From assembly GCA_028277845.1 (NCBI GenBank), contig JANQFL010000011.1:200887-264886 (forward strand): a stretch of 64,000 bases of DNA. The letters run 5' to 3'. Shown here piece after piece: positions 7,481 through 50,665 of the stretch (the stretch's first letter is position 1; each line of letters starts with the position of its first letter). The notes beneath the pieces are model-generated. The model had not been told where the DNA came from, searched no databases, and saw only the letters and a program-made list of their open reading frames with translations. Source of the DNA: Sneathiellales bacterium (GTDB lineage Bacteria; Pseudomonadota; Alphaproteobacteria; JANQFL01). Both the position numbers and the translations under genes were made by a program.

Positions 7481-7483
7481 ACT

Positions 7484-10092: not shown

Positions 10093-10162
10093 AAAACACC
10101 CATTGTTTTGGCGCCGGAACCTTGTCTTTCGCCGGTCAGTGCCGGATGTGCCGGCAATCCGC

Positions 10163-12230: not shown

Positions 12231-12260
12231 TGTGTCCTCACTTCCTTCGTGCAGAAAAAT

Positions 12261-12893
12261 TCAGTTGCTGGCCGTCTGGTGCGCCCGCAACAGCGTGCGG
12301 CAGGAGGCCACCATGGACCGCACCTGCTCGGCGGAGTTGTTGAGGTCCACCGCCATGGCGTCGAATTGACCGCCGCTGGTCCCGAGCGATGCCGCTTCCG
12401 TCCGCGCCACCGTGGCGAAGCTTATGGCGGCGAGGATGCGTTGATCGATTTCATCCAGCAGCGATGTCAACGTGTACAGATATTCGCGTAGCCGGTCGCG
12501 CAGCGACTGAACCTCCCGTTCCAGCCCGGCCAGGGGTTGACGAACGGAGGCGGCGTATTCGGCCTTGCCGGCACGCTTTTGGCCTTCGGCCACCTTGTCC
12601 CTGGACTGCGCCGCCCTGACCTCGGACAGGGACGTTCGGGAAACTTCGAGGGCGACCCGGTTGACGTCGCCGGTGAGGCGGCGGACATCGTTGGCCAGTT
12701 CCTGCATGAAATCGGTGATGGGGCGGAATCCGCGCGCGCTCTGTTCCGCCCGGGCGGTAAGAGCCATGGTGTTCATGGCACCGAGCGAGATGTTTTCCGC
12801 CACCGGGATAACCTTGTCCAGCGTCGCCGCGATGGTCACGGCGGCAACGTAGAAGTCGTCGCCGGTCTTTTGTTTCGATACCGTGATCTCCAT
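12261..12893 (-). CDS. Small cytoplasmic protein with a degenerate MCP signalling-tip-like segment
   Basis: ATG at 12893 (MEITVSKQK...). The segment ISLGAMNTMALTARAEQSARGFRPITDFMQELAN aligns to the MCP hairpin-tip consensus [32 protein letters not shown], with substitutions at key positions. It is the last gene of the che/partner-switching operon. Confidence 0.45.
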   Translation of the reverse strand: MEITVSKQKTGDDFYVAAVTIAATLDKVIPVAENISLGAMNTMALTARAEQSARGFRPITDFMQELANDVRRLTGDVNRVALEVSRTSLSEVRAAQSRDKVAEGQKRAGKAEYAASVRQPLAGLEREVQSLRDRLREYLYTLTSLLDEIDQRILAAISFATVARTEAASLGTSGGQFDAMAVDLNNSAEQVRSMVASCRTLLRAHQTASN

Positions 12894-12904
12894 GGCGCAG
12901 TCTC

Positions 12905-13816
12905 CTACCGGGCCCCGTCGAAGTGCATGCGTGCCTCGACGATATTGCCGGCGCCCTCGAAGCGGACGTCGTCGAATGCCAGCTTGCGGGCGAACAGCAG
13001 GCCGCGGCCATGCAGGCCGCAATCCGAACATCCCTCGTGTTCTTCAAAACGGCGGTAGTCGAACCCCTTGCCCTGATCGGTCACCCGGATGGTGACACCG
13101 GACGGGCCATTGTCGAAGTCGACCAGAACGAACCGGTCCTTGAAGGGGGCCTGCTCCAGACGGCGCTCGATTTCCGTCTGCCAGGTGCCGTCGGCCAGCA
13201 GGACGGATTTCCGCTCGTAACCGATTTCGAGATTACCGTGCTCGATGGCGTTGACGAACAGCTCCCGTGCGCCCAGGGCGACCCGTTCCGGTTCCGGGCA
13301 CGACAGCGACAGCATCGTCGCCAGGTTCTCGGCTTCTTCCAATGTCCGTATCCTGAACTGACCGGACCGGACATGGCCGACGGCGGATGTGCGCTTGCGC
13401 ACTTCGGCCCGCAACTGCGACCGCTTCTCCTGTTCGAACACCGCCGCCCGGACGACCGCACACAGCGTCTTGTCATTGACCGGCTTGCGCAACTCATAGG
13501 CCGCCTCGCGGGCGATATGTTCGGCCACCGGGTGCGAGCCGTCTCCGGTTAACAACATCAATGGCACCTTCGATTTATCGGGTGGAAGCAGCAATTCGAG
13601 CAACGCCCCGTCGCTTTTGGAAAATCCGGTATCACCATCGAAAATGATGGCCTCAATCCCCGAAGACGAAGCACTGATCGCGGCCAGGCCATCGTCGGAA
13701 ATCTCCTGCAGGTCCTGCAATTCAAACTGCTCATCAGAAACTCTGGCCAATTTTCCAATACGTTGCGAACTTCGATCTATGATCAACACGGGAATGGGAT
13801 CTTCGGTCATATCCAT
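12905..13816 (-). CDS. Receiver-domain protein fused to an RsbW/SpoIIAB-like GHKL serine kinase (anti-sigma-factor-like)
   Basis: N-terminal receiver-like region (PVLIIDRS...IIFDGDTG...LMLLTGDG). C-terminal HATPase motifs ELFVNAIEHGN and DQGKGFD...GLHGRGLLFARK. Confidence 0.6.
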   Translation of the reverse strand: MDMTEDPIPVLIIDRSSQRIGKLARVSDEQFELQDLQEISDDGLAAISASSSGIEAIIFDGDTGFSKSDGALLELLLPPDKSKVPLMLLTGDGSHPVAEHIAREAAYELRKPVNDKTLCAVVRAAVFEQEKRSQLRAEVRKRTSAVGHVRSGQFRIRTLEEAENLATMLSLSCPEPERVALGARELFVNAIEHGNLEIGYERKSVLLADGTWQTEIERRLEQAPFKDRFVLVDFDNGPSGVTIRVTDQGKGFDYRRFEEHEGCSDCGLHGRGLLFARKLAFDDVRFEGAGNIVEARMHFDGAR

Positions 13817-13839
13817 CGCCGGAACTCAATTCGATTGTT

Positions 13840-15084
13840 TCAATAACGATGGAAACAGAGAACGGAGAGGTCATCGGGCAATGGTCCCGGCGCCCGCACG
13901 AAAAACCGGTTCAACAGGGATTCCATCATATCCTTGACGTTGGCGTGCCCGACGCTTTCCCCGGCCAGACGCAGCAGGTCGTCCTGTGTGAATACGGGGT
14001 CGGCCGGAGTCGGCGTTTCCACCAACGCATCACTGTAGAAAAAGAGCACATCGCCTTCACCGAAGGGCGTGGAATGAACCGTGTATTCGTTTTCCTTTCT
14101 GAATCCGACGGGCAGGCCGGCACTTTCGAGATAGCGAACGTCTCCGGAACGGTCGTTTGCCAAAATGGGTGGCGGGTGGGCCGCAGACGAATAGGTCAGG
14201 CGGTCGTTCTCGAGATCGAGAACGCCGATGATCATGGTCGCGAACTGCCCGGTCGGTAAAACCCGCGTGAAAAACGTATTCACCATTCCCAGATAATTGC
14301 CGGCGTCCACAATGGATTCGGACGCCATCCAATCCAGCAGGGTGTGCAGGCGAAACGTGTTCAACGCGGCGGTAACGCCATGACCGGAAAAGTCCGCCGA
14401 TACGAATCCAAGGCGGTTTTCGGTAATCGAGCGCAGGCCCCAGAAATCCCCGCCAAGCTCCTGGCAGGCTTCGTAGTGCGCCGCGATGCCCAGATTGTGA
14501 CGCGCCGAGAGCTTGTCGATGACGTCCTGACTGGGCATGAGGGCGCGTTGCATACCGTGCGCCATATCCAGTTCATAGCGCAACCGTTCCTGATAGATCG
14601 ACAGTTCCCGAATGAGAAACCGGTTTTCCAGATGGATTTTCACCCGTGCGATCAATTCGGGCGCATAGATCGGCTTCGTCACCAAATCCGTCGCGCCGAC
14701 ATCGAACGCCTTGGACCGTTCCTCCTCCGAATTGATTCCCGACTGAAACAGCACCGGTGTATCGCGCAGGAAAGGATCGGACCGGATTTTGCGGCAAACC
14801 TCGTAGCCATCCATGTCGGGCATGACGATATCGAGAAGAATCAGATCGGGCTTGATTTGCCGGGTCTTCTCGAGAGCTTCGTTGCCATCGGCGGCCTCTT
14901 CGACACAAGTGTAGCCGGCCTTCCGCAAATAGGCGGAAATCAAGGTCCGCTGCAATTTTCTGTCATCGACCACGAGGATGGACGCATCCAAGTTGTGTTG
15001 CTCGGATACCGTGGCCTCATGGGTGGCCTCGACCTCCAACGCCGGTGAGGCCGACACATTCTCCGCACGCAATGAAGCAGTCAT
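13840..15084 (-). CDS. Response regulator receiver plus PP2C-type (SpoIIE/RsbU-like) phosphatase
   Basis: ILVVDDRKLQRTL...DLILLDIVMPDMDGYEV...TKP forms the receiver. The C-terminus, with GGDFWGL and SDGL-like motifs, is PP2C. The track ORF extends to 15201, but the likely start is near MTASLRAEN. Confidence 0.75.
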   Translation of the reverse strand: MTASLRAENVSASPALEVEATHEATVSEQHNLDASILVVDDRKLQRTLISAYLRKAGYTCVEEAADGNEALEKTRQIKPDLILLDIVMPDMDGYEVCRKIRSDPFLRDTPVLFQSGINSEEERSKAFDVGATDLVTKPIYAPELIARVKIHLENRFLIRELSIYQERLRYELDMAHGMQRALMPSQDVIDKLSARHNLGIAAHYEACQELGGDFWGLRSITENRLGFVSADFSGHGVTAALNTFRLHTLLDWMASESIVDAGNYLGMVNTFFTRVLPTGQFATMIIGVLDLENDRLTYSSAAHPPPILANDRSGDVRYLESAGLPVGFRKENEYTVHSTPFGEGDVLFFYSDALVETPTPADPVFTQDDLLRLAGESVGHANVKDMMESLLNRFFVRAPGPLPDDLSVLCFHRY

Positions 15085-15110
15085 GGATATACCCAAACTC
15101 CGGCCGGCTT

Positions 15111-15419
15111 CTACATTTCCACGACGACCACATCGCCGATTTTGGCCAAATCCAGCAATTGCTTGACCTGACCGCGCGGTGATCGCAGTGCGAAATCCCA
15201 ACTGTTCTTCTGCAGTTCCTCATTGGCAATCATGAACATCCCCAGTCCCGCGGAATCGACGGAAGCCAACTGGGACAACTCGAACACGCATTTCTTTCCG
15301 CCATTTGAGATAACGTTCTTCAACACATCGCGGAATTCTCCATGGTCGGAGAACGTCAGTGCCTCGCTGAGCCGCACCACGACTTCGTTATCGGCCACAT
15401 TGACTTCGTGCTTCATCAT
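15111..15419 (-). CDS. STAS-domain anti-sigma-factor antagonist
   Basis: 102 aa with a SpoIIAA-like pattern, including the conserved phosphorylatable Ser region (...ELSQLASVDSAGLG...). Confidence 0.75.
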   Translation of the reverse strand: MMKHEVNVADNEVVVRLSEALTFSDHGEFRDVLKNVISNGGKKCVFELSQLASVDSAGLGMFMIANEELQKNSWDFALRSPRGQVKQLLDLAKIGDVVVVEM

Positions 15420-15430
15420 TCCCTCCTTTG

Positions 15431-16660
15431 CTAAAACAGTTCGACATCCCCGCCCGAGGCAGCGGCACCGGTGTCTTCTTCGTCCGGTATCGCGTCCTCT
15501 TCGTCAAACAACATGCGCCTGACGAAACGCTCCCGCATCTCGCCCAACGTGCAGCGGTTGACGACCGACAACAGCCATTCCTCGTCGACCACCGCGTCCT
15601 GATTGACATCCGAAACGGTCTCCCGCGTCTCGGCCTTCAAGTCATCGGTGGCATCACTGAGGACGGAGATGGTTCCGATGACGTTTTCCAATCTCTGTTT
15701 CGTACGGTCCTGGAATTGCGTGCCCGTGACCAGGCCGGAAACGTCTTTGGTGATGGCCTCGGCGACCTGCGCGGAATCCGACAGCGTGCTGGTGAACAGG
15801 TTGTTCTGCTCAACCAGTCCCTTCATCATTTTTTCGAGACGTTCCTTTGCAACGATCTGATCGGACATGTCGATGGCCGCGACCTTCTTTAATTCGGCGT
15901 GTCCGGACCGAACACCCTGCGTGACGGCCAGGACCTGTTCACGCATGTCGGTCGACAATCTATCGATTGTGCGGGACAGTTCCCGGACCTCTTCCGACAC
16001 CACACCGAAACCCTTGCCGGCGTCGCCGGCGCGCGCCGCCTCGATCTTGGCATTCATGGCCAGCAAGTTGGTCTGGTAGTTGATCGTTTCGATCTGGTCG
16101 ATGCAGGCCTCGACTTCTATGACGTGATTGATCACATCGTCGAGGGCATACACCATGGAGACGGCCTGCTTGGACATGAACAGGATCTTGTTGACCACGT
16201 CCATCAGCGTGCTCTCGAGAATCTGCGGAAACTCCGTCAGCCGGATGGACTCTCCATCCACTTCCACCTGCTGGGCCAGTTGGATGATCTCGAAGATACT
16301 CTCGGTCTGGCGCTGCGCATTGCCGGCCAGATTGGTAAATCGGCCGGAAAGGTCCTCCGTGCTTTCCTCGACCAGGTCGGAGGCAATTGTGATTTCGCCG
16401 CACAGGGCAGACAGGGTACGGCGTTGAATTTCCGACAGGCCGATCCAGCGGTCCAGGAACTCGACGACATCCGTGTGACTGTAATCCGGAGCGGTGTCGG
16501 CGTCCGCGGACAACCGCAGATCGTGTTCATCCACGGCCGTGCCGGATGTTTCGTGTTGGGCTTCGACGCAATCGATGGTCTCGGATTCATTGCCGGCCGT
16601 TTCGAACGGGTTTTCGGTTTCGTCCACCGCAAGGGCCGCCTTTTTCTTAAACCACAACAT
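15431..16660 (-). CDS. Soluble methyl-accepting chemotaxis protein (cytoplasmic MCP signalling domain)
   Basis: Has the highly conserved tip [39 protein letters not shown]. No TM segments. 409 aa. Confidence 0.8.
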
Positions 16661-16710
16661 CGATCCACTCGCCTCTCGCTAACCCAAACGTTCTCGACAT
16701 TCGCTCTGCA

Positions 16711-17781
16711 TCAAACCCGGACGGCCCGCACCGCGCGCGAACCGCAGCATGCAAGGATGGCCTCGCCGACCTTTCCGATGCCGACCTGCGTTTCCACGCC
16801 GCCGGCCTCGAAGGCGGCTTTCGGCATGCCGTAGACAACACAGGTGTTCTCGTCCTGCCCGATCGTGTTGGCACCGGCGTCACGCATGCATTTGAGCCCC
16901 TCGGCGCCATCACGGCCCATGCCGGTGAGAATAACCCCGACCGCATTGGCCCGCGCCACCTTGGCTACCGAAGAAAACAACACGTCGACGGACGGCCGAT
17001 GTCCACTGACGGGTGGTTGATCGTGCAATCGACAGACATAGTTGGCGCCCGAACGGGCCAGTTCGAGATGTTGATCACCCGGTGCGATGTATACGTGCCC
17101 GGGCAGCACGCGTTCGTTATGGCGTGCTTCCGACACGGATACATTGGCCATCTTGTTCAGACGTTCCGCGAAACTCGTTGTGAATTTCTCCGGCATATGT
17201 TGCGTCACCAGGATCGCCGGGCTGTCCGCGGGCAGCGGTATCACGACATCGCGAATGGCTTCCACACCGCCCGTCGACGCGCCGATCGCGACGACTTTCT
17301 CGGTTGACGAAAACCCTATGCCGGTCTTCAACGGTTTCCGGCTCGCCGCCGTTGAACGGTCGGTGCGGCGGACCCGGGCATTGGCGGCGGCTTTGACCTT
17401 GGCGATGATTTCCGCCTGTTTCTCGGACAGCCCCTGGGCCAAGTCCTGTGCCGGTTTGCCGACGAAGTCGACGGCACCGACTTCCAGCGCCTGAACGGTG
17501 GCTTCCGCGCCTTCCTGTGTCAGAGACGACACCATCACCACGGGCATCGGCCGCAACGACATGATTTTGGAGAGAAAAGACAACCCGTCCATCCTGGGCA
17601 TCTCGATATCCAGCGTCAGGACATCCGGATTGAGCTGTTTGATCTTGTCGCGGGCGACATAGGGATCGGGTGCCGCGAAAACGACTTCGATGTCGGGGTC
17701 GGCGTTGAGCATGGTTGTCAGCATTTGGCGCATCAGCGCCGAGTCGTCGACAACAATTACGCGGATGGGTTTGTCGGGCAT
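16711..17781 (-). CDS. cheB: Chemotaxis response regulator protein-glutamate methylesterase CheB
   Basis: Receiver ([13 protein letters not shown]...[12 protein letters not shown]) plus methylesterase domain (GASTGGVEA...HMP...GMGRDGAEG). Confidence 0.9.
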
Positions 17782-17790
17782 GGTGCGGCC

Positions 17791-18462
17791 TCAATCGAAC
17801 AGTTCGACATCACCGGCCACGGGCTTGCCGGCGATGGTCGCTTTGTATTTGCATTCGTTGGCGATGACAGCGCCGTCGCTGCTACGCCGCAGCAGCAGCC
17901 GCTTGACCTTGCCGGTGGCGGGAAAGTAGTGAATGCGCCGCGGCCGCTTGCCGCCGAGATCGACGGCCGTCGCCTCCAATCCCTCGTTCTTGAGATAATG
18001 CAAGGCGAAATCGGCGTTACGTTCGCCGATGAGCAATGATCCGTCCATGACGTTGCCGCCACCGAACAGCTTGATCTCCAACCGCCAGCGCGGACATCCC
18101 CGAACCAAGACGGTATTGATTAGGGTTTCCATGGCGTGGTTGCCGTATCGCATGGCGACGCCGCTGGTTTCACCCCAGTCGCCGGTGCTGCTGGCCGGCA
18201 ACATGAAATGATTCATGCCGCCGAAACCGGTTTCGGGATCACGGACACAGGCCGAAACGCAAGAGCCGAGTACCGTTACCAACATGTCTTCCGGATTCGA
18301 CGTGACATAATGTTCTCCCGGCAGCACCTTGCAGGCATAGGCGCGGAACATGGGATCGAAATAGCGTTTGATATGATGCGGCGGTTCGGGCTGACGGCGG
18401 TCCGGCGCGGTGCCACGCCGGTCACGCTTGCCGAAATCGGTCCGTGCGGCGGCAGTTGTCAT
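17791..18462 (-). CDS. cheD: Chemoreceptor glutamine deamidase CheD
   Basis: CheD-like sequence (VLGSCVSACVRDPETGFGGMNHFMLP). Overlaps the cheR stop. Confidence 0.8.
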   Translation of the reverse strand: MTTAAARTDFGKRDRRGTAPDRRQPEPPHHIKRYFDPMFRAYACKVLPGEHYVTSNPEDMLVTVLGSCVSACVRDPETGFGGMNHFMLPASSTGDWGETSGVAMRYGNHAMETLINTVLVRGCPRWRLEIKLFGGGNVMDGSLLIGERNADFALHYLKNEGLEATAVDLGGKRPRRIHYFPATGKVKRLLLRRSSDGAVIANECKYKATIAGKPVAGDVELFD

Positions 18463-19310
18463 GCCACCCTCCGGTAGACGGTCCGGCCCACAATCTTATA
18501 GCGCTGGCCGTCTTCGCGCAGGGATTCCGAATGCCCGATATAAAGCCACCCGCCCGGCTTGAGCAGAGAGGCGAATCGGTCGACCAGCCGTGCCTTGGTC
18601 GCCGCGTCGAAATAGATCATGACGTTGCGGCAGAAGATGGCATCGAACGGCCCCTTCATCGGCCAATTACCCAGCAAATTGAGCTGCTTGAATGCGATCA
18701 GTTCGCGCAGCGAGTCGGCCATGCGAACCGTGCCGGCATCGGCGGATTGGCAGAACTTGGCGTAGTAGCCGGCCGGCAGGGCTTCCTTGCAACTGGCGCC
18801 GTAGACACCGGCCCGGCCGGTGGCGACCATGTTGGTATCCAGGTCGGTGGCCAGGATGCGCGCATCCCAGGTATCCATGTTCGGCAGGGCACTGCGCGCC
18901 GTCATGGCGATCGAATAGGGTTCTTCGCCCGAAGAGCAGCCGGCCGACCAGATTCGCAGACGCTTCGACCCACCCGCCAATGCCTGAGCGTTGAGATCGC
19001 CGAGAACGGCCTCCTGCAAGTGATCGAAATGATGGGATTCGCGGAAGAATTTGGTCAGGTTGGTCGTAATGGCGTTGATGGCGTAACCGATTTCGTCACT
19101 GCCACCGTCGGCGATAAGGGCGCAATAGTCCTTGAAGGTCGACAGACCCAGTGCCCGCAACCGCCGGGCCAAACGGGCGTAGACCATGTTCTTTTTATGG
19201 TCGCCGAGGACAATGCCGGACTTTTCGTAGACGAGACGGGCCAGATAGGCGAACTCCTGTTCGGAGAACGCGAATTCCCGGTCCGCTTCCTGTTGTGCCA
19301 AAGCTTGCAT
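18459..19310 (-). CDS. cheR: Chemotaxis protein methyltransferase CheR
   Basis: CheR N-terminal plus SAM-MTase domain (RIWSAGCSSGEEPYSIAM...NVMIYF). Confidence 0.9.
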   Translation of the reverse strand: MQALAQQEADREFAFSEQEFAYLARLVYEKSGIVLGDHKKNMVYARLARRLRALGLSTFKDYCALIADGGSDEIGYAINAITTNLTKFFRESHHFDHLQEAVLGDLNAQALAGGSKRLRIWSAGCSSGEEPYSIAMTARSALPNMDTWDARILATDLDTNMVATGRAGVYGASCKEALPAGYYAKFCQSADAGTVRMADSLRELIAFKQLNLLGNWPMKGPFDAIFCRNVMIYFDAATKARLVDRFASLLKPGGWLYIGHSESLREDGQRYKIVGRTVYRRVA

Positions 19311-19385
19311 GACGCTTCCGTGCTCGAAGGGGATGGCGGGCCGCCCCGGCGGTGCCCACGCCGGGGCGGCCCACTGACGACCGGC

Positions 19386-22300
19386 CTAGAATTCGCTCCA
19401 GTCGGGGTCGTCCTCGACGGCGTCACTGATCGCCGCCTGCATTTCGGCGACGGCCACGCCGCCACCGCCACCTGCCGCGGCAACTTTCTGCATGGGAACA
19501 GGCTGACTCTTCGCTTGCGGTACCGGCGACTCGCCGCCGCCCGAAGCACCGGCGGCAACACCGTCGCTCAATCCGCCCTCAATGGAGAAGAACTCCATGC
19601 GGCTGTGCATGTTCCGCGATTGGTCTTCCAGTGTCTTGGCGGCCGCGGCGTTCTCCTCGACCAGGGCCGAGTTCTGCTGGGTCATCTCGTCCATTTGCGA
19701 TACGGCCGAATTGATCTGCTCGACACCGGTGGACTGCTCGTTGCTGGCGGCAGCGATCTCCGAGACGATATCGGTGACCCGCTTGATGGAGTCGACGATC
19801 TCGTTGAGAGACTCGCCGGCCGCGTTGACCAGCTTGACGCCGCCTTGGACCTGATTGCCGCTATCGACGATGAGCGATTTGATGTCCTTGGCCGCCTGGG
19901 ACGACCTCTGTGCCAGGGTACGAACCTCTGAGGCCACAACGGCAAAGCCCTTGCCGGCGTCGCCGGCCCTGGCGGCTTCCACCGCGGCATTGAGGGCCAG
20001 CAGGTTGGTCTGGAAGGCGATTTCGTCGATCACGCCGATGATGTCGGATATCTTCTGCGAAGAATCCTCGATCTTCGACATGGCATCGACCGCTTCACCG
20101 ACCACATTGCCGCCATTGGTGGCAATGTCGCGGGCGCTGATGGCCAACTGGTTGGCCTGCTGGGCGTTTTCGGCGTTCTGCTTGACCGTGGAGGCCATTT
20201 CCTCCATGGACGCGGCGGTTTCCTCCAGATTCGACGCCTGTTGTTCCGTGCGCTGAGACAGATCGGCGCTACCGTTGGAGATTTCCGAGGCGGCGTTGGC
20301 CACTTCGTTGGCCGCCACCATGATCTCGGTGACGATCTCGCTTAACTTGGTCGACGTGGTGTTGGCGTCGTTCTTCAGCGATTCGAACGCACCGCTGTAA
20401 TCCTTCGTAATGCGCTCGTTGAGATTACCGTCGGACAGGGCGCCCAGCACGCGGCCTACATCCTCCACCGCGTCGGCGACATTGGACGAGAGGCTGTTCA
20501 TGGCCTCGGCCAGCGTCTTCATGAAGCCGTCCTTACCGTCCAGCCCAATGCGGCGGCTGAAATCACCGGCGATGGCCGCCTGCACGACTTCGTCGACCTC
20601 GCTTTCGACCAGCTTCTCCTGGGTGATGTCCTTCCACTCGACGACGGTGCCGATGCGGTCGCCGTTATCGGGATCGATCACCGGATTACCGACCAGATTG
20701 AAGAACCGGCCCGCCGGCGAAATTTCGGCCTCGTACGTACCCGACATTTTCTCGAGCAAACCGCGCTGGTGCGCCGGGTTTTTGTGGAAGGTATCCATGT
20801 TGGTGCCGATCAGATTGGCGATGTCCAACTGGGGCAGTTCCTTCTTCAGGTCGGATTCCGCGTTGCGCAGCATGTCGACCATGGTCTTGTTCATGTAGAC
20901 GATATCGAAATTGCCGTCGGCGACCATGACGTTGGTCTTGCAGTTGTCGAGGGCGATCCGGATACGCAGATTCTCCTGGGCGGCGCGTTTTTCTTCACGC
21001 TCCCGGGCCAAACGCTCGGTCTTGTCGTCCCATTCGACGACGGTGCCGAGACGATTGCCGTTTTCGTCCAGTACCGGGTTGGCGATCAATCCGAACGTAC
21101 GTCCGGCCACTTCGATATCCGTGGCGTGGGTATCCTTCAGATTGGCGATCATCTGGCGCTGATGGGACGGATCCTTGTGGAAAACATCCACGTTGGTGCC
21201 CATTAGTTTGCCGCTGTCGAAATGGGTCAATTCCTTGGTCAGATCGGCTTCGGCGTTTCGCATCATCTCGTGCATCGTCTGGTTCATGTAGACGATGTTC
21301 ATGTCGTCGTCGGCGACCATGACGTTGGTGTTGCAGTTGTCGAGCGCAATCTTGATGCGCAGGTTATCGCGCGCCACCAACTCCTGTTCCAACTTGCGAT
21401 CCTTGAACACCTGAACGGCGCTGGCCAGGACACCGAACTCGTCACGCCGGCCCAGTCCCGGAACCGGTACGTCCTCGCCGTCGGCCAGTTGCGTCACGGC
21501 ATCGCTGATGGCCTGTACGGGTCGGGACACCGTGCGGGCCAGGAAGAAGCCGATGGTGCCGACACCCAGCACACTACCCAGGGTGATCAGCAGAATGAGA
21601 TTTCGCATATCCCGGACCGGCGCCTCGATTTCCTCCAGCTCGGCTTCCATGATCAGGGCATAGTTATGGCCATGGAACTCGAAAGGCAGATACGAGGACA
21701 GTACTTCGGTGCCGTGATAGCCGGTGATGATCCGGGTACCGGATTCACCGTTGAGGGCGGCCGTGACGGTTTCGGTGTCGACCTTCTGTTTGAGAACAGT
21801 CGATTCCTTCATCAGCCGCGAGTCGTTCCGCATAAAACGGTCTTCACCGACCAGGAACGCCTCGCCGGTTTCACCCAATCCATGCGATAGACCGAGCACT
21901 TTGTTGAACTTGTCCGTCGGCATCATGACGGCCAGTACGCCGATCGGATTGCCACCCTCATCGAGCACGATGGTCGACATGAAGCTGGCCGGGTCCCCGT
22001 GGGACGGCTCGTAGGGCTTGAAGTCGTAATAGGACTGATACTCCGGACTGGGATTATTGCGTGCCGCCCGGTAGGCATTGCCCAGGTCGGTTTCGCGCCA
22101 CCGCCCGGTCATCACGTTGGTTGCGAAGTCCGTTTCCTTGAACACCGAATAGACCAGATTGCCGTCCATATCGAACAGAAAGACGTCATGGTAGCCGTGC
22201 TCGTGCATCACGTCGCGGAACCAGGGGTGAAACCGGCGATGGATTTCGCTATAGGCGCTGCCATCGGGCGCGGCGTCGTACCTGTCTTTCTCGGCAACGG

Positions 22301-22688
22301 GATTAGGGTTCTCCTGGATATACAGTTTTTGCAGCGTCCGGGTCTGATTGCCAACCAACGCATTCCAGCCGCGGGTAAACTCGGAAACCGCCTCGCGGAC
22401 GGCCAGGTTGGTCGACATCAAGTGCAGATCGTGTTCGATGCTTTCAAGATATTCCTTGAGGTCGACGTGGCGGGTATCGAGCAGGGAACTGATGCGCAGT
22501 TCCGCTTCCTTGCGGACCTCGATCTCTGAGGACACATAGCTGCCGACGCCGACGCCCAATGCCGCCAGCAATGCAGCGCCGGCAATGATCAGCGGCAGTT
22601 TCGTGCCGACATTCATGTCAAGTTTCAGCCAGCGGCGCTTGGCCTTGGGTTCGGCGATCTCTACATCGTCGATCGTGGTGGTGGTCAT
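19386..22688 (-). CDS. Methyl-accepting chemotaxis protein with periplasmic Cache-like sensor, HAMP, two PAS domains and MCP signalling domain
   Basis: Likely start MTTTTIDD at 22688 with a GAGGAA Shine-Dalgarno sequence. The track ORF extends to 22847, overlapping cheW. It has a TM helix near the N-terminus, a second TM around residue 400, and repeated PAS-like segments. The tip reads [43 protein letters not shown]. Confidence 0.85.
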
Positions 22689-22722
22689 TGCGGGTTCCTC
22701 GAATGAAGTGTTTTTGATTACG

Positions 22723-23301
22723 TTATGCGTTAGCGATCTCGGCGGCGGCGGCAACCGTGTCGATGTCGCCGGCAAACAATTCTCCCAGGTTGAGTAACGC
22801 GACCATGCTGTCGTTGATCGATACGAGCCCGGACAGGAATTGCGCATCGTTCGTTCGTTCCATCTCGGGCACCGGCCGGATTTCTTCGCTGCCGACCGTC
22901 AGAATGTCGGATACGGCGTCAACCAACAGTCCGACGATGCGTTCGCCGATGCTGACGATGATGACGACATGCGTGGGCGTCGCTTCGGTCGATCCCATGC
23001 CGAACCGGCAGCGCATATCAAAGATCGGCACGATGACACCGCGCAGGTTCAGCACACCCCGCATGTACTCCGGTTGATTCGGCAGCGACGTCACTTCGGT
23101 CCACCCCTTGATCTCCCGCACTGAAATGATATCGACGGCGTATTCCTCGCTGCCGATGGTAAAGCTGATGAACTGACACGTTTCACCTGAGCTTTCCGCC
23201 TGTTCCTCTTCCCGCCAGCCGTCGCCGGATGCCATGGCGGCATTGGGACCTGTTGCGGTTGGGTCCTGCGATTCGATTTGGGTCTGGTCAGTCAGTTCCA
23301 T
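22723..23301 (-). CDS. cheW: Chemotaxis coupling protein CheW
   Basis: CheW fold ([22 protein letters not shown]...[16 protein letters not shown]). The start is uncertain (it may be an internal Met). It overlaps the cheA stop. Confidence 0.8.
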
Positions 23302-25508
23302 GACTGTGGCTCCGGGTTTGCGTTGTCAGAAGTGGGGACGGGCGGACGTCCGATAGCGAGCGCGGTCGCATCAGTCGGAGGGGTCAGTTCGCTACCGGAC
23401 GCCGCCCGAACCGGAGGGGAGGTAGCCTGAGTGCCCAGGCCGCCGTTGGTGCGGCATGGGCCGAGGGATGCGCTCTCCAAGGCGTCGAGGTCGAGGATCA
23501 GAGCCACCCGGCCGTTGCCGAGAATGGTGGCGCCCGAAATACCGTCGACCGGATCGTAATTGGCTTCAAGGCTCTTGATGACGACCTGCTGCTGGCCCAG
23601 CAGTTCGTCGACAAACACGCCGATACGGCTGCCGTTCTCGGTTTCGACAAGTACGACCAACCCGCTGGAGGGATCGGTGATGGCGTCCGGAACGTCGAAC
23701 TGGCGATGCAGATAGACCATGCGGATATAGTCGCCGCGGATCGACACAACCTCGCTTTGGTTGACCAGGGTGTGGATGTCATTGGGTTCCGGCCGCAGGG
23801 TCTCGACGATGCTGGTCAAAGGCAGGACGTATTTCTCGGCACCGACCGCGACGATCATTCCGTCCAGCACCGCCAGGGTCAGCGGTAGGGTCAGGGAGAA
23901 CCGGCTGCCTTTGCCGGGAACCGAATCCACCGACACGCGGCCGCCGAGATTGGCGATGTTGCGTCGGACCACGTCCATGCCGACGCCGCGGCCCGATACA
24001 TCGGTGACCTCGTCGGCCGTCGAAAAGCCGGCCTCGAAGATCAGGTTGTCGATCTCCTCGTCGGCCGGATGGGCATCGGCGGCGACGATACCGCGTTCGA
24101 CCGCCTTGGCCAGAACCTTTTCACGGTCGATGCCGCGACCGTCGTCCTCGATCTGGATCAGGATCCGACCGCCCCGATGTTCGGCGGACAGCTTGATACG
24201 GCCTTCGGCGGGTTTGCCGGCGGCCTGCCGTTCCTCGGGCGATTCCAGACCGTGGTCCAGGGAGTTACGGATCATGTGCGTCAATGGATCACCGAGTTCC
24301 TCGATCACCGTCTTGTCGATCTCCGTTTCCTCGCCGCTGGTTTCCAGAACCACCTTCTTGCCCAATTTGGACGACAGGTCGCGGACGATCCTGGGCATGC
24401 GCGAAAAAACGGATTTCACCGGCTGCATGCGGATGGCCATGACGCCTTCCTGCAGTTCCCGCGTATGAAGTGCGAGATCCTCGAGGCCTTGCATGGGTAC
24501 GCCGGCACCCTCGCCGGTGTTGTCCAGAACCTGCTGGCGCAGCATGGCCTGCGTGATGACCAGTTCGCCTACCATGTTGACGAGGCGGTCGATGCGATCG
24601 AGGTCCACCCGGATGGAATTGACCTTCGAGCGTTTACCCGAACCGCCGTCGCCGGCTTGGGCGGACGGCTGTTTGGCCTTCTGCGCCTTATCGTCCTTGG
24701 CAGCCGCGGTAACGCTCGGCTCGTCGTTGTTCCGAGAGGGTGCGTCTTCGCTGCCTGGTGTCGCCGTGATGTCCAAGTCGCAATCGTCGACGACAAACTC
24801 GAAGACCTCCTCGATGGCCTGCAAAGGCTGATCGCTGGTCAACACGAACGTCCAGCCAATATAGGCCTGCTCGGGATCGAGGGACTGCAAGGGCGGCAGC
24901 TTCGCACAGTCGGGTTTGGCGACGACATCGCCCAGCCGACGCAGTTCGCGGACCAGAAGCAGAGGTTCGTTGGCGTGACGAAACAGGTCGGCGTGTGGCC
25001 GGAATACGATGGTGTAGATCATTGTTCCGGTGTCTTGCGGCGCGCTCGGGCCGGCATCTTGCGTGTCTGCGGCGGGGCCATCATCGGCGCCGGATACGCC
25101 TTTGATGACGTCGATCTGGTTCTGGATCTGCTCCAGTGTGTCGGAACCGAAACCGTCCTCGACTGCGCGATTGTCCTGCGCCGCGTCGACCAGGTCTGCG
25201 ACGATGTCCGCGGCCTTGATCAATAGCTGGCACACCTCGTCGGTCACCTCGGCTTCGCCCGCACGAAGTAGGTCGAGCAGGTTCTCGAACGCGTGGCTGA
25301 ACTCGACCAGCTCGACAAACTTGAATGCCCCGGCGCCGGCCTTGATGGAATGAATCGCCCGGAAGATGGCATTCATGTCCTCGGAATCGATGTGCGCCGC
25401 ATCAAGCGACGTCAGCCGATTTTCGAGATCGCTGAGCAGTTCGGCGCATTCTTCGAAGAATGTCGCGGCAAACTGTGCGAGGGGATCTGCTGGGTTTTTC
25501 TCGGTCAT
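23292..25508 (-). CDS. cheA: Chemotaxis histidine kinase CheA
   Basis: Hpt domain with phospho-His (IFRAIHSIKAGAGAF), a P2 linker, the dimerisation domain, the HATPase (DDGRGIDREKV...GRGVGMDVV) and a C-terminal CheW-like domain. Confidence 0.9.
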   Translation of the reverse strand: MTEKNPADPLAQFAATFFEECAELLSDLENRLTSLDAAHIDSEDMNAIFRAIHSIKAGAGAFKFVELVEFSHAFENLLDLLRAGEAEVTDEVCQLLIKAADIVADLVDAAQDNRAVEDGFGSDTLEQIQNQIDVIKGVSGADDGPAADTQDAGPSAPQDTGTMIYTIVFRPHADLFRHANEPLLLVRELRRLGDVVAKPDCAKLPPLQSLDPEQAYIGWTFVLTSDQPLQAIEEVFEFVVDDCDLDITATPGSEDAPSRNNDEPSVTAAAKDDKAQKAKQPSAQAGDGGSGKRSKVNSIRVDLDRIDRLVNMVGELVITQAMLRQQVLDNTGEGAGVPMQGLEDLALHTRELQEGVMAIRMQPVKSVFSRMPRIVRDLSSKLGKKVVLETSGEETEIDKTVIEELGDPLTHMIRNSLDHGLESPEERQAAGKPAEGRIKLSAEHRGGRILIQIEDDGRGIDREKVLAKAVERGIVAADAHPADEEIDNLIFEAGFSTADEVTDVSGRGVGMDVVRRNIANLGGRVSVDSVPGKGSRFSLTLPLTLAVLDGMIVAVGAEKYVLPLTSIVETLRPEPNDIHTLVNQSEVVSIRGDYIRMVYLHRQFDVPDAITDPSSGLVVLVETENGSRIGVFVDELLGQQQVVIKSLEANYDPVDGISGATILGNGRVALILDLDALESASLGPCRTNGGLGTQATSPPVRAASGSELTPPTDATALAIGRPPVPTSDNANPEPQSWN

Positions 25509-25522
25509 GGCACGTTTCGAAG

Positions 25523-25888
25523 TCAGCCGCAGACCTTGCCGACGACTTGCAGCAGTTTTTCCGGTTCAAACGGTTTGACGATCCAACCGGTGGCGCCGGC
25601 GGCGCGGCCTTCGGACTTTTTCTGGTCATCCGATTCCGTGGTCAGAATCAGTATGGGTGTCGTGCGATGGCTGGGATTTTCGCGCAGCTTTTTGACCAGC
25701 GTAATGCCATCCATGTTCGGCATGTTGATGTCGGTGATCACCAGATCGACCCGTCCGTCACCCAGCGTGGACAGGGCGTTGACGCCGTCATCGGCTTCAA
25801 TGACGTCATAGCCGGCGTTCTTGAGCGTGAAACAAACCATGTCGCGCATGGTCTTGGAATCGTCGACCGTCAATACGCGTTTCGACAT
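25523..25888 (-). CDS. cheY: Chemotaxis response regulator CheY
   Basis: 121 aa. Contains DDS, DLVITDINMPNMDG and the KPF motif. Confidence 0.9.
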   Translation of the reverse strand: MSKRVLTVDDSKTMRDMVCFTLKNAGYDVIEADDGVNALSTLGDGRVDLVITDINMPNMDGITLVKKLRENPSHRTTPILILTTESDDQKKSEGRAAGATGWIVKPFEPEKLLQVVGKVCG

Positions 25889-26200
25889 TTACTCGTCCCT
25901 CCAGTCATTCAACTCGGCGGCAAATCCCAAGTCCACGAACGCCTTCTGCAGTACATCCGACGGTGTAACCATGATCAGTCTGCGATTTCCGGCGCGCAGG
26001 ATTTCTGACGCTGAGAGCAGGACCTGCAATCCGGGCGTGTCGATCCTTTCGACCGCGGCACCTTGAACGGCGACGTCACCGGTGCCGCTGACCGCATCAA
26101 GCAGGGCATCCTTTAGGGTCTCCGCCGAAACCAAGTCGATTATGGGAATCAGAGTGACCTGGGAATGGTCGTTCCGATGCTCCACCGCAAAGTCACCCAC
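25889..26200 (-). CDS. STAS-domain protein (anti-sigma-factor-antagonist-like), first gene of the che operon
   Basis: 103-aa SpoIIAA-like fold. It abuts the cheY start. Confidence 0.65.
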   Translation of the reverse strand: MGDFAVEHRNDHSQVTLIPIIDLVSAETLKDALLDAVSGTGDVAVQGAAVERIDTPGLQVLLSASEILRAGNRRLIMVTPSDVLQKAFVDLGFAAELNDWRDE

Positions 26201-26634
26201 ACCGCAACCTCATACGTCCTTTGTATTAGTTTCAATTTTGAGAAGAGCGCCGCGGTACAAATTTTTAGTTGCACTTCGGCTCCTTTCGGTGGGCAAATTT
26301 TGAAATTCGATTGGTTAAAAAATGCTTATCCATATCTATTTCTAGGGATTTTACGCGCTGTAATTGCATACTATTGATTGTAAAATTAAGCCTTATTGCG
26401 AGAATTTGAGTAGAAATAGGAACTTATGTCACGATATTCGTTACAAACACACGCAATGCTTGATTTATTAGACCATCCTCAATCCACACACCTTCCGATC
26501 GGTTTTTCTACTTTATTGATATAATTCCTTTGATTATGTCGCGTGGCGTTCATTTCATCAGTCGGCGCACGTCTCCAGTGGCGCGGCCACCGCCGGGACT
26601 GAAAGTCTGTTGACGCAGGTCACTCACATTTCGC
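26201..26634. promoter_or_regulatory. AT-rich (about 35% GC) 430-bp divergent intergenic region between the che operon and the TetR gene
   Basis: A strong compositional dip relative to about 65% GC flanks. Multiple A/T tracts. Presumed promoters for both divergent operons. Confidence 0.4.
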
Positions 26635-48738: not shown

Positions 48739-48742
48739 GGCC

Positions 48743-50651: not shown

Positions 50652-50665
50652 CGGTTGGGATTCCG

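What the first reader, a model, noticed from the sequence alone, without database searches (positions are those of the whole stretch)
12261..26200. Chemosensory operon whose output appears to be a partner-switching (anti-sigma-factor-type) module rather than the flagellar motor
The minus-strand operon runs STAS, CheY, CheA, CheW, MCP(Cache-HAMP-PAS-PAS), CheR, CheD, CheB, soluble MCP. It continues without a break into a second STAS, a receiver-PP2C phosphatase (RsbU-like), a receiver-RsbW-like GHKL serine kinase and a small MCP-tip-like protein.
No sigma factor or flagellar gene is present in the cluster.
This architecture is that of a Che-like pathway controlling an 'alternative cellular function' through STAS phosphorylation state. 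The specific combination is unusual: two STAS genes, two receiver-fused Rsb-type enzymes and a PAS-rich receptor.
Basis: partly seen in the sequence, partly recalled or inferred. Interest (0 to 1): 0.55.

Follow-up and report, generated by a model that had tools for sequence, protein, structure and literature searches.

The report
F7 chemosensory operon with partner switch
This is a real 14-gene bacterial sensing operon that joins oxygen-type receptors and a chemotaxis kinase to a phosphorylation "partner switch", but the layout is already described (ancestral F7 systems of Vibrio; Che4 of Azospirillum), so it is a new example with a few variations, not a new kind of system.

Summary
The genes are there as described. 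One minus-strand operon runs STAS, CheY, CheA, CheW, MCP, CheR, CheD, CheB, soluble MCP, STAS, REC-PP2C, REC-like RsbW-type kinase and a small MCP-tip protein. [quoted passage not shown]

The order matches, gene for gene, the published "stage 1" ancestral F7 cluster (Ortega 2020), apart from one CheW instead of two. It is colinear with a Vibrio aquimaris cluster at 39-50% identity for the Che core (19-27% for the McpA-like receptor and partner-switch proteins), and with Azospirillum brasilense che4 at 38-65%.

The main receptor is an Aer2-type double haem-PAS receptor of the 36H class with a DWSEF tail. So the system is F7-type, not ACF.

The two STAS genes are of different kinds. The first is CheS-like with no conserved Ser. 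The second keeps the phosphorylatable Ser56.

A partner-switch output is plausible and already proposed (Shewanella CrsR/CrsA). "Rather than the flagellar motor" is not supported, because A. brasilense Che4 drives swimming reversals.

Variations here:
- the kinase is split off, with a degenerate receiver;
- the Aer2 receptor carries two TM segments and a dCache domain;
- a mini-receptor plus ODP module is appended; that pairing held in 71 of 80 metagenomic loci.

Interest is modest.

The parts
25889..26200 (-). STAS-1: head-of-operon, CheS-like STAS protein (103 aa, GTG start). It has Thr55 where SpoIIAA has the phospho-Ser.
   Evidence: Pfam STAS E=1e-9. It groups with the Novosphingobium STAS upstream of cheA (E=2e-6) and with Vibrio STAS-1 (E=4e-5), and gives no hit to STAS-2-type proteins. 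CheS is a STAS protein that binds CheA in S. meliloti.
25523..25888 (-). CheY: single-domain response regulator (121 aa) with D9, D10, D53, T82 and K104.
   Evidence: Pfam E=3e-29. Alignment to E. coli CheY. 50% identical to the CheY of the Vibrio aquimaris F7 cluster.
23292..25508 (-). CheA histidine kinase (738 aa).
   Evidence: Hpt, H-kinase_dim, HATPase_c and CheW domains. Best NCBIfam model is the E. coli-type CheA, 569 bits, matched end to end. 42% identical to the CheA of the Vibrio aquimaris stage-1-type cluster, and 65% identical to A. brasilense CheA4 over its C-terminal 175 aa.
22723..23301 (-). CheW coupling protein (192 aa). There is only one copy.
   Evidence: Pfam E=7e-36. This exact product is on record in the NCBI source.
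19386..22688 (-). Aer2-type receptor with an added membrane-anchored sensor: TM, dCache, TM, HAMP, two haem-type PAS domains, HAMP_2, a 36H signalling domain and a C-terminal DWSEF pentapeptide (about 1100 aa).
   Evidence: Pfam domains. Gapless alignment to E. coli Tsr residues 232-518, E=1e-79. PAS1 is about 55-60% identical to the P. aeruginosa Aer2 PAS domain (3VOL, 4HI4; E=1e-38); PAS2 repeats the same FHK..HQR and VEW motifs but was not aligned to it in full. 42% identical to Vibrio Aer2 over residues 437-1100.
18459..19310 (-). CheR methyltransferase.
   Evidence: Pfam CheR E=5e-64 plus CheR_N.
17791..18462 (-). CheD receptor deamidase. It ends ...GDVELFD.
   Evidence: Pfam CheD E=8e-26. 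The C-terminal motif is conserved in all nine CheD sequences (eight distinct) examined.
16711..17781 (-). CheB methylesterase with a canonical receiver.
   Evidence: Pfam. Receiver alignment.
15431..16660 (-). McpA-like soluble receptor (409 aa). It ends GGDVELF, the conserved Trp-less McpA tail.
   Evidence: MCPsignal E=9e-20. 43% identical to A. brasilense Tlp4b and 27% to the Vibrio McpA-like protein. C-terminal motif; the motif is described by Ortega 2020.
15111..15419 (-). STAS-2: anti-sigma-antagonist type, with Ser56 in a DSAGLG motif.
   Evidence: Pfam STAS E=1e-13. Aligned with SpoIIAA Ser58 and RsbV Ser56. 38% identical to the Azospirillum STAS that follows Tlp4b.
13840..15084 (-). 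Receiver-PP2C phosphatase (RsbU/CrsR-N-like, about 414 aa) with D40, D41, D85 and the conserved Ser and Lys of a canonical receiver.
   Evidence: Response_reg E=5e-29 plus SpoIIE E=3e-37, full length. Receiver alignment. More than 2000 homologues; the named ones are mostly alphaproteobacterial.
12905..13816 (-). Degenerate receiver plus RsbW-type GHKL serine kinase / anti-sigma-like domain (303 aa).
   Evidence: HATPase_c_2 E=2e-12. N, G1 and G2 boxes are intact. Family members carry PF00072 plus PF13581. AlphaFold pLDDT 84, pTM 0.82, with a receiver fold at 8-141 and a GHKL fold at 151-298.
12261..12893 (-). Mini-receptor (210 aa): two MCP-tip-like hairpins, predicted to form a single-chain four-helix bundle. 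It is the partner of ODP.
   Evidence: Weak MCPsignal hit, E=0.006. 185 clusters of about 200 aa in 1.84 billion representatives. The family profile best matches T. maritima Tm14, E=7e-10. AlphaFold pLDDT 83. ODP lies directly downstream in 71 of 80 related loci.
11466..12230 (-). ODP, the oxygen-binding di-iron protein (254 aa).
   Evidence: PF19583 E=1e-75. E=7e-65 to T. denticola ODP (6QRQ) and 5e-54 to T. maritima ODP (6QNM).
26201..26634 (.). Intergenic region of 434 nt shared with a divergent TetR gene. It is the presumed promoter region.
   Evidence: Inferred from gene layout only. The sigma-70 scan found one weak plus-strand match and none for the operon.

Best explanation
This is an F7-class chemosensory pathway of the alphaproteobacterial Che4 type. 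It has the "stage-1" gene order, three receptor inputs and most likely two outputs.

Inputs:
- A membrane-anchored Aer2-type receptor. Its two haem-PAS domains would sense O2 or another gas, and its periplasmic dCache would bind an unknown ligand.
- A soluble McpA-like receptor.
- An ODP di-iron O2/Fe(II) sensor that works through its own sensor-less mini-receptor.

Core and adaptation. All three inputs set CheA activity through CheW. CheR, CheB and CheD adapt the receptors, and CheR is tethered by the DWSEF tail of Aer2. STAS-1 is a CheS-like CheA accessory.

Outputs. CheA-P is expected to phosphorylate three kinds of target:
- CheY. In Azospirillum Che4 the equivalent protein switches the flagellar motor.
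- CheB.
- The receiver of the PP2C phosphatase (D85), and possibly the degenerate receiver on the RsbW-type kinase (D60).

The partner switch. The kinase phosphorylates STAS-2 on Ser56 and the PP2C removes the phosphate. The phosphorylation state of STAS-2 then decides whether the kinase / anti-sigma-like domain holds or releases a still unknown partner.

What is shown and what is inferred. The gene content, domain integrity, homology and synteny are shown. Every phosphotransfer step, the motor link and the identity of the target are inferred.
For: - Operon structure: gaps of -10 to +75 nt across 14 genes.
- The gene order is identical to the published stage-1 F7 cluster.
- It is colinear with Vibrio aquimaris, at 39-50% identity for the Che core, 19-27% for the McpA-like receptor and the partner-switch proteins, and no significant match for STAS-1.
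- It is colinear with A. brasilense L083 at 38-65%. I read L083 as che4 from the published description: nine genes including CheS, Tlp4a and Tlp4b, classed F7 and 36H.
- The receptor is 36H and its PAS domains are Aer2-type haem PAS.
- The receivers of CheY, CheB and PP2C are canonical.
- STAS-2 keeps Ser56 and the kinase boxes are intact.
- Che4, CheA4 and CheY4 control flagellar reversals. cheA4 mutants also show broad proteome and promoter changes through "unidentified regulators".
- In Shewanella the homologous CrsR/CrsA pair, encoded in the F7 cluster, sequesters and releases sigma-S.
- ODP is strongly homologous to the solved sensors. T. denticola ODP works with a sensor-less MCP that modulates CheA.
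- The mini-receptor plus ODP pairing was seen in 71 of 80 loci. In six of those loci the pair sits directly after F7-like che genes, including the partner-switch genes in four of them.
Against: - No experiment links CheA to the Rsb-type receivers in any organism I could read about.
- Only 64 kb of the genome is visible. I cannot tell whether the organism is flagellated or has another che system.
- The host appears to be alphaproteobacterial by best named hits only. Alphaproteobacteria generally lack RpoS (background knowledge), so the Shewanella target cannot simply be transferred.
- In Paludibacterium the REC-RsbW family sits beside an ordinary histidine kinase, so these receivers can be fed by non-Che kinases.
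- Formal MiST/HMM classification of CheA was not possible.
Confidence: 0.6

Rival explanations
1. A dedicated non-motility (stress or lifestyle) pathway, as the first reader proposed and as is assumed for gammaproteobacterial stage-1/2 F7 systems. The only meaningful output is the partner switch. CheY acts as a phosphate sink or an accessory, and another che system drives the flagellum.
For: - The gene order equals stage 1. [quoted passage not shown]
- The CrsR/CrsA pair, encoded in the Shewanella F7 cluster, regulates sigma-S.
- No cheZ, cheX, cheC or flagellar gene lies in the cluster or in the scanned ORFs of the window.
Against: - The window proteins are closer to A. brasilense Che4 (38-65%) than to the Vibrio cluster (19-50%). 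Che4 is required for chemotaxis.
- A CheS-type STAS at the head of the operon is typical of alphaproteobacterial motility che operons.
- Absence of flagellar genes from 64 kb says little.
Confidence: 0.25
2. An ordinary chemotaxis operon with an unrelated partner-switch cassette and ODP module that merely sit next to it. The Rsb-type receivers would be phosphorylated by other histidine kinases.
For: - The same REC-PP2C, STAS and RsbW genes occur without che genes (L082).
- The REC-RsbW family lies next to a CHASE-PAS histidine kinase in Paludibacterium (L087).
- The mini-receptor plus ODP pair is usually found away from che clusters: 27 of the 33 loci with enough upstream sequence.
Against: - Linkage of the second STAS and the phosphatase to F7 che genes is conserved from Vibrio to Azospirillum and in low-GC metagenomic lineages, in the same position.
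- The gaps are 11-26 nt, leaving no room for independent regulation.
Confidence: 0.12

Closest known systems
Stage-1 ancestral F7 chemosensory cluster (V. cholerae cluster III, Methylomicrobium alcaliphilum; Ortega et al. 2020, PMC7184735)
   Same: - Same genes in the same order: STAS, cheY, cheA, cheW, aer2-like, cheR, cheD, cheB, mcpA-like, STAS, serine phosphatase.
- 36H Aer2 receptor with a pentapeptide.
- McpA-like receptor with the conserved Trp-less tail.
- Colinear with a Vibrio aquimaris example at 39-50% identity for the Che core and 19-27% for the McpA-like receptor and partner-switch proteins.
   Different: - One cheW instead of two.
- The Aer2 receptor has two TM segments and a periplasmic dCache, whereas the described Aer2-like receptors have no periplasmic domain.
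- The GHKL kinase is a separate gene with its own degenerate receiver. In Vibrio it is the C-terminal domain of a REC-PP2C-HATPase protein of 564 aa.
- A mini-receptor and ODP are appended.
- The host looks alphaproteobacterial, a clade that the paper placed outside its five stages.
Azospirillum brasilense Che4 (F7) operon
   Same: - Closest characterised relative.
- CheA through Tlp4b are colinear at 43-65% identity.
- One CheW, and a CheS gene at the head according to the literature.
- In L083 (read here as che4) it is followed by STAS, an RsbW-type kinase and REC-PP2C.
   Different: - Azospirillum has a kinase without a receiver and two REC-PP2C paralogues.
- Its Tlp4a has one PAS domain and no C-terminal pentapeptide.
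- It has no mini-receptor or ODP.
- Its function (swimming reversals) is demonstrated only there.
CrsR/CrsA of Shewanella oneidensis and HsbR/HsbA of P. aeruginosa (partner switches controlling RpoS, FlgM and HsbD)
   Same: - A receiver-controlled PP2C, an RsbW-type kinase / anti-sigma domain and a STAS antagonist with a phosphorylatable Ser.
- CrsR and CrsA are encoded inside the F7 che1 cluster.
   Different: - There the three domains are one polypeptide (REC-PP2C-kinase). Here they are two proteins, each with a receiver-type domain.
- The target cannot be assumed to be sigma-S in an alphaproteobacterium.
- Identity is low: 26-27% to the Vibrio three-domain protein.
ODP with its sensor-less cytoplasmic receptor (T. 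denticola TDE2498/TDE2496; T. maritima ODP)
   Same: - ODP is clearly orthologous in fold and sequence (E=7e-65).
- It is genetically coupled to a receptor without a sensor domain.
   Different: - The partner here is only 210 aa and falls below the Pfam MCPsignal threshold.
- It has two tip-like motifs and is predicted to be a single-chain four-helix bundle, not a long dimeric hairpin.
- It is attached to an F7 cluster with a partner switch, not to the F2 chemotaxis system of a spirochaete.
CheS of Sinorhizobium meliloti / Agrobacterium fabrum
   Same: A single-domain STAS protein encoded in an alphaproteobacterial che operon next to cheY and cheA. STAS-1 groups with head-of-operon STAS proteins.
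   Different: I had no S. meliloti CheS sequence to compare directly. Binding to CheA is not tested.

Membership tests
Stage-1 F7 chemosensory cluster (Ortega 2020) | Gene order STAS, cheY, cheA, cheW, aer2-like, cheR, cheD, cheB, mcpA-like, STAS, serine phosphatase. | tested here: met
   Pfam on every ORF. Colinear tblastn against the Vibrio aquimaris cluster. Definition taken.
Stage-1 F7 chemosensory cluster (Ortega 2020) | Two cheW-like genes. | tested here: not met
   Only one CheW ORF lies between cheA and the MCP. A. brasilense che4 also has one.
Stage-1 F7 chemosensory cluster (Ortega 2020) | Aer2-like receptor of heptad class 36H with a C-terminal x-[HFYW]-xx-[HFYW] tether. | tested here: met
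   Gapless 287-residue alignment to Tsr, against 28 extra residues relative to a 44H receptor. Aer2-type PAS domains. The protein ends DWSEF.
Stage-1 F7 chemosensory cluster (Ortega 2020) | Aer2-like receptor without a periplasmic domain. | tested here: not met
   A dCache_1 domain (E=3e-13) is flanked by two hydrophobic segments, N-terminal to the first HAMP.
Stage-1 F7 chemosensory cluster (Ortega 2020) | McpA-like receptor with the conserved Trp-less C-terminus. | tested here: met
   It ends GGDVELF. The same motif occurs in Tlp4b, the Vibrio McpA-like protein and metagenomic homologues. Described.
Stage-1 F7 chemosensory cluster (Ortega 2020) | CheA, CheB and CheR classify as F7 with the Wuichet-Zhulin HMMs. 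| not testable with these tools
   The HMMs are not available here. Proxies point to F7: the best NCBIfam model is E. coli-type CheA, there is 65% identity to CheA4 (che4 is published as F7), and the receptor is 36H.
Stage-1 F7 chemosensory cluster (Ortega 2020) | A separate F6 system elsewhere in the genome; a gammaproteobacterial host. | not testable with these tools
   Only a 64-kb window is available. The source contig carries no name. The best named homologues are alphaproteobacterial.
A. brasilense Che4-type F7 operon | Nine colinear genes, CheS to Tlp4b, with a 36H PAS-containing receptor. | tested here: met
   L083 is colinear at 43-65% identity from CheA to Tlp4b. The upstream CheS and CheY4 lie outside the fetched locus.
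A. brasilense Che4-type F7 operon | Controls flagellar reversal frequency. | not testable with these tools
   This needs genetics. It is known only for Azospirillum.
CrsR/CrsA-HsbR/HsbA partner switch | Receiver, PP2C and GHKL kinase / anti-sigma domains in one polypeptide. | tested here: not met
   There are two separate ORFs with a 23-nt gap. The Vibrio and metagenomic relatives are fused, at 560-569 aa.
CrsR/CrsA-HsbR/HsbA partner switch | STAS antagonist with a phosphorylatable Ser, and a catalytically competent kinase and phosphatase. | tested here: met
   STAS-2 Ser56 aligns with SpoIIAA Ser58. N box ELFVNAIEHG, G1 DQGKGF and G2 HGRGL are present. The SpoIIE domain matches positions 2-191 of 192.
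CrsR/CrsA-HsbR/HsbA partner switch | The anti-sigma domain binds RpoS (or the STAS protein binds FlgM or HsbD). | not testable with these tools
   No sigma or anti-sigma gene was found in the window ORFs scanned. The target is unknown.
ACF-class chemosensory system | CheA and the adaptation proteins group with ACF, and the receptor class is not 36H. | tested here: not met
   The receptor is 36H and Aer2-like, and the synteny is F7. Formal HMM classification was not run.
ODP plus sensor-less receptor module | ODP di-iron metallo-beta-lactamase fold. | tested here: met
   PF19583 E=1e-75. 6QRQ E=7e-65, with the HQDPD and later His/Asp positions aligned.
ODP plus sensor-less receptor module | The adjacent partner is a canonical MCP signalling hairpin. 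| tested here: inconclusive
   MCPsignal gives only E=0.006. The family profile hits Tm14 at 7e-10. The AlphaFold model is a single-chain four-helix bundle built from a shallow alignment of four sequences.
CheS-type STAS | A single STAS domain encoded beside cheY and cheA in an alphaproteobacterial che operon, with no need for the phospho-Ser. | tested here: met
   Position and domain. Thr, Ala or Gln occupies the Ser position in the three head-of-operon STAS proteins, against an invariant Ser in eight STAS-2-type proteins.

The most novel reading that the evidence does not exclude
Two readings are not excluded.

(a) The 210-aa protein may represent an unannotated family: about 185 clusters at 50% identity, no Pfam model, nearly always followed by ODP. 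Its members would be single-chain pseudo-dimers of the receptor signalling tip, made of two tandem tip hairpins in one four-helix bundle. Such a protein could insert into, or cap, an F7 array as a monomer and so plug a di-iron O2/Fe(II) sensor into a pathway that also reads haem-PAS O2 signals.

(b) The partner switch behind Che4-type F7 operons may be the missing regulator by which CheA4-type kinases change transcription in alphaproteobacteria, which lack RpoS. That would imply a new target for this anti-sigma-like kinase.
Probability: 0.3. Interest if true: 0.55.

Novelty: new member of a known kind. Interest (0 to 1): 0.3.

Why it matters
The function of ancestral F7 chemosensory systems is an acknowledged open question; Ortega 2020 writes that it "remains unclear".

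- **Age of the layout.** This operon shows the full stage-1 layout, partner switch included, in what looks like an alphaproteobacterial lineage. Its closest studied relative, Azospirillum Che4, is a true chemotaxis pathway. That suggests the Che-to-partner-switch link predates the alpha/gamma split and can coexist with motor control.
- **A handle on an open result.** The link offers a concrete candidate for the unexplained effects of cheA4 on gene expression.
- **Experimental tractability.** Here the kinase and phosphatase are separate proteins, and the sensing side is rich in O2 sensors: two haem-PAS domains plus ODP. This version would be convenient for phosphotransfer tests in vitro.

In itself, however, the operon is another example of a published architecture.

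Tried and rejected
- **Genome-collection scan.** The REC-PP2C query was swamped by generic receiver patterns such as MPDMDGYE.
- **Exact look-ups.** Taxonomy therefore rests on the names of the best hits only.
- **Other look-ups.** P0153 and P0247 were not on record.
- **Promoter and terminator scans.** These were uninformative: two weak sigma-70 matches against 5.7 expected, and only weak terminator-like stems.
- **Rfam and tRNA scans of the window.** Nothing found.
- **A. brasilense che4 in the plasmid collection.** Searched to read its 5' end; it is not there.
- **The 51-sequence mini-receptor alignment.** Too diverse for a locus scan; a 10-sequence subset worked.
- **Papers not held.** The primary CrsR paper and the ODP paper could not be read. 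What I say about the ODP paper beyond searches is from memory.

Ideas considered and rejected:
- An ACF-class system, because the receptor is 36H and the synteny is F7.
- Both STAS proteins as substrates of the partner switch, because STAS-1 belongs to a different, Ser-less subgroup.
- The kinase protein lacking a receiver, because family, profile and fold evidence all say it has a degenerate one.
- DUF2855 as part of the operon, because of the 193-nt gap and no conserved linkage in L081, L083 or L086.

Full report
**Observation**

The region 11466-26200 carries fourteen minus-strand ORFs with Pfam assignments. In transcription order they are:
- STAS-1 (25889-26200)
- CheY (25523-25888)
- CheA (23292-25508)
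- CheW (22723-23301)
- a large MCP (19386-22688)
- CheR (18459-19310)
- CheD (17791-18462)
- CheB (16711-17781)
- a soluble MCP (15431-16660)
- STAS-2 (15111-15419)
- a receiver-PP2C phosphatase (13840-15084)
- a 303-aa HATPase_c_2 protein (12905-13816)
- a 210-aa MCP-tip-like protein (12261-12893)

Successive genes are separated by -10 to +75 nt, and a 193-nt gap follows ODP. No convincing terminator lies inside. The NCBI source record has products identical to the CheY, CheW, CheR, CheB and ODP ORFs and to the 210-aa and 303-aa proteins, which supports those gene models.

**What the system is**

The gene order is, gene for gene, the "stage 1" ancestral F7 cluster defined by Ortega et al. [quoted passage not shown] I checked this against sequence in five ways.

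- **Vibrio aquimaris.** A replicon of 1.3 Mb, listed as plasmid pTHAF100_a in PLSDB, carries exactly that cluster. The window proteins hit it colinearly: CheY 50%, CheA 42%, CheW 41-43%, the MCP 42% over residues 437-1100, CheR 39%, CheD 39%, CheB 46%, soluble MCP 27%, STAS-2 19% (E=4e-4) and REC-PP2C 26%. The kinase domain is 27% identical to the C-terminal HATPase domain of the Vibrio REC-PP2C-HATPase protein.
- **Receptor class.** The signalling domain of the large MCP aligns without a gap to E. coli Tsr residues 232-518 (36H class, E=1e-79). It needs 28 extra residues against a 44H receptor.
- **PAS domains.** PAS1 is about 55-60% identical to the haem-binding PAS of P. aeruginosa Aer2. 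PAS2 repeats the same FHK..HQR and VEW motifs.
- **Receptor tails.** The large MCP ends in DWSEF. The soluble MCP ends in GGDVELF, the conserved Trp-less tail that the same paper describes for McpA-like receptors.
- **CheA.** Its best NCBIfam model is the E. coli-type CheA, matched end to end.

The class is therefore F7, not ACF. Formal HMM classification could not be run.

**The closest characterised relative**

Homologues of the REC-PP2C protein with names are mostly alphaproteobacterial: Emcibacter, Luteithermobacter, Aestuariispira, Magnetovibrio and Azospirillum.

In A. brasilense the homologue lies behind CheA-CheW-MCP(HAMP-PAS-HAMP)-CheR-CheD-CheB-soluble MCP. Those genes are followed by STAS, an RsbW-type kinase and two REC-PP2C genes, and the whole stretch is 38-65% identical to the window.

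The literature describes che4 as an F7 operon of nine proteins. They include CheS, CheA4, CheR4, CheB4, the 36H PAS-containing Aer2-like Tlp4a, and Tlp4b. I therefore read this locus as che4. Che4, CheA4 and CheY4 control the probability of swimming reversals, and the mutants are chemotaxis-null.

Ortega et al. placed all alphaproteobacterial F7 systems in a clade outside their five stages. The window and L083 show that this clade shares the stage-1 order, with one CheW.

**The partner-switch module**

- **STAS-2.** It has Ser56 in DSAGLG, aligned with SpoIIAA Ser58 and RsbV Ser56. All eight STAS-2-type proteins I aligned keep that Ser.
- **PP2C protein.** It has a canonical receiver (D40, D41, D85, Ser, Lys) and a full-length SpoIIE domain.
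- **The 303-aa protein.** It keeps the N, G1 and G2 boxes of RsbW/SpoIIAB-type kinases. Its N-terminal half is a receiver by three lines of evidence:
  - Family membership: most homologues of about 300 aa carry PF00072 plus PF13581, and the family consensus has DD, D, T and K.
  - Profile hits by NCBIfam response-regulator models.
  - The predicted (beta-alpha)5 fold.
  In the window copy the acidic pair is reduced to D14 and the MPxxDG motif is gone, while D60, T90 and K111 remain. Whether it can be phosphorylated is open.
- **Domain arrangements elsewhere.** In Vibrio and in low-GC metagenomic relatives, the phosphatase and kinase are one REC-PP2C-HATPase protein of 560-569 aa, like Shewanella CrsR. 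Some alphaproteobacterial homologues are fused in the opposite order. The split arrangement here is a variant of a known module.
- **STAS-1.** It is a different kind of STAS. It matches only head-of-operon STAS proteins (Novosphingobium E=2e-6; Vibrio E=4e-5). At the Ser position these have Thr, Gln or Ala. In alphaproteobacterial che operons such a protein is CheS, which binds CheA in S. meliloti.

**The extra input module**

ODP is clearly homologous to the solved T. denticola and T. maritima sensors (E=7e-65 and 5e-54). In T. denticola, ODP is coupled to a receptor lacking TM and sensor modules, and that receptor modulates CheA.

What I found about the 210-aa protein upstream of ODP:
- **Family.** A full HMMER pass over 1.84 billion representatives found 185 clusters. 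All of the 150 best hits listed are short proteins (about 100-260 aa, most about 200 aa) and nearly all match over almost the whole query. No ordinary long MCP appears among the best 150.
- **Sequence.** The family consensus has an MCP-tip motif...NAKAIAARAG..ARGF.PITDF..., and a second, weaker one...SR.EA.... Its profile best matches T. maritima Tm14.
- **Structure.** AlphaFold predicts four long helices with both tip-like turns at one end (pLDDT 83, pTM 0.74). Foldseek finds only designed single-chain four-helix bundles. The alignment behind the model had just four sequences, so a dimeric hairpin is not excluded.
- **Pairing with ODP.** In 80 metagenomic loci that encode relatives, an ODP gene follows within about 20-130 nt (one locus about 480 nt) in 71. 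All but one of the exceptions lack room downstream.
- **Linkage to che genes.** In 6 of the 33 loci with at least 6 kb upstream, the pair sits directly behind F7-like che genes. In four of them partner-switch genes lie in between, and three of those (L113, L145, L165) have the full run of soluble MCP, STAS and a fused REC-PP2C-HATPase.

The attachment of this module to F7 clusters is therefore recurrent, not peculiar to this genome.

**Mechanism**

The best-supported reading is a branched pathway. Three receptor inputs set CheA activity through CheW. CheR, CheB and CheD adapt the receptors. CheA-P then feeds CheY, CheB and the receiver of the PP2C phosphatase.

The phosphatase and the RsbW-type kinase set the phosphorylation state of STAS-2 Ser56. 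That state governs what the kinase / anti-sigma-like domain binds. In Shewanella the homologous domain holds sigma-S until unphosphorylated CrsA displaces it.

Alphaproteobacteria generally lack RpoS (background knowledge, not tested here), so the target in this organism is unknown. The phosphotransfer steps are inferred from linkage and from intact receivers. Nobody, in the papers I could read, has shown CheA-to-CrsR transfer; Fortier et al. write only that Che1 "could be involved".

The claim that this replaces the flagellar output, the ACF label and the claim of an unusual combination do not hold. Both the architecture and the hypothesis are published. The nearest studied relative is a motility pathway that nevertheless carries the same downstream module.

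The cheA4 mutants of Azospirillum show broad changes in proteome and promoter activity through "unidentified regulator(s)". The partner switch behind che4 is an obvious candidate for that regulator, and this is the most useful idea to come out of the locus.

**Limits**

- Only 64 kb of the genome is visible.
- CheA class rests on proxies.
- Operon status rests on gene spacing.
- The mini-receptor model rests on a shallow alignment.

Noticed in passing
window 17791-18462 (CheD) and 15431-16660 (soluble MCP); also L081, L083, L086, L088, L113, L145, L156, L165, L168: Every CheD examined (nine sequences from nine loci, eight of them distinct, since L083 and L084 are two A. brasilense assemblies) ends in G-[DE]-[VI]-E-L-F. 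The McpA-like receptors of the same clusters (7 of 7) end in a near-identical motif, G-[DE]-[IV]-[ED]-[LFM]-F. Ortega 2020 calls the McpA tail strikingly conserved and of "unclear biological role". A shared tail with CheD suggests a common docking site.
   Followed up: partly
L088-L167 (metagenomic loci), L085: The mini-receptor family of about 200 aa has no Pfam model and is followed by an ODP gene in 71 of 80 loci. ODP is far better conserved (60-69% identity) than its partner (26-39%). L130 is the one locus with room downstream but no ODP.
   Followed up: yes
L165 723-2042; L113 603-1813; L145 776-2010; L156 4034-5267: Low-GC (38-50%) metagenomic F7-like clusters carry two extra ORFs between cheW and cheR. 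In L165 and L156, where they were scanned, these are a ParA/MinD-like ATPase and a STAS-containing protein of 159-185 aa; ORFs of matching size sit at the same position in L113 and L145. This addition is not in the published stage descriptions that I read.
   Followed up: partly
window 5401-9688: A low-GC island (46% against about 60-65% around it). It holds a C5 cytosine methyltransferase (PADLOC DrmMII model, E=2e-91), an unassigned 368-aa ORF and a 734-aa GHKL-ATPase protein with weak type II restriction-enzyme hits. It is probably a horizontally acquired restriction-modification or defence cassette.
   Followed up: partly
L083 13146-15418 and 15655-17991: A. brasilense has a second STAS, RsbW and REC-PP2C triplet on the opposite strand, 2 kb beyond the che4-linked one and next to a PAS histidine kinase. 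Several partner switches may therefore converge there.
   Followed up: no
P0012, P0020, P0049 (homologues of the REC-PP2C protein): Some proteins of about 650-700 aa fuse an N-terminal RsbW-type kinase to REC-PP2C (confirmed by alignment for P0012, read from the sequences for P0020 and P0049). That is the opposite domain order to CrsR/HsbR (REC-PP2C-kinase). These fusions link the two window proteins functionally.
   Followed up: partly
L087 (Paludibacterium yongneupense) 7423-10888: A canonical REC-RsbW protein of the same family overlaps the end of a CHASE-PAS histidine kinase gene. The family is therefore a general two-component output and is not specific to Che systems.
   Followed up: no
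window 10163-11272: A DUF2855 gene follows the operon after a 193-nt gap on the same strand. It is not linked to the che cluster in L081, L083 or L086.
   Followed up: no
window 46677-51329: Genes for a 2-oxoacid:ferredoxin oxidoreductase (POR_N, PFOR_II, TPP_enzyme_C) and a large Fe-S flavoprotein lie here. They hint at a low-oxygen metabolism, which would fit an operon with three O2-type sensors.
   Followed up: no
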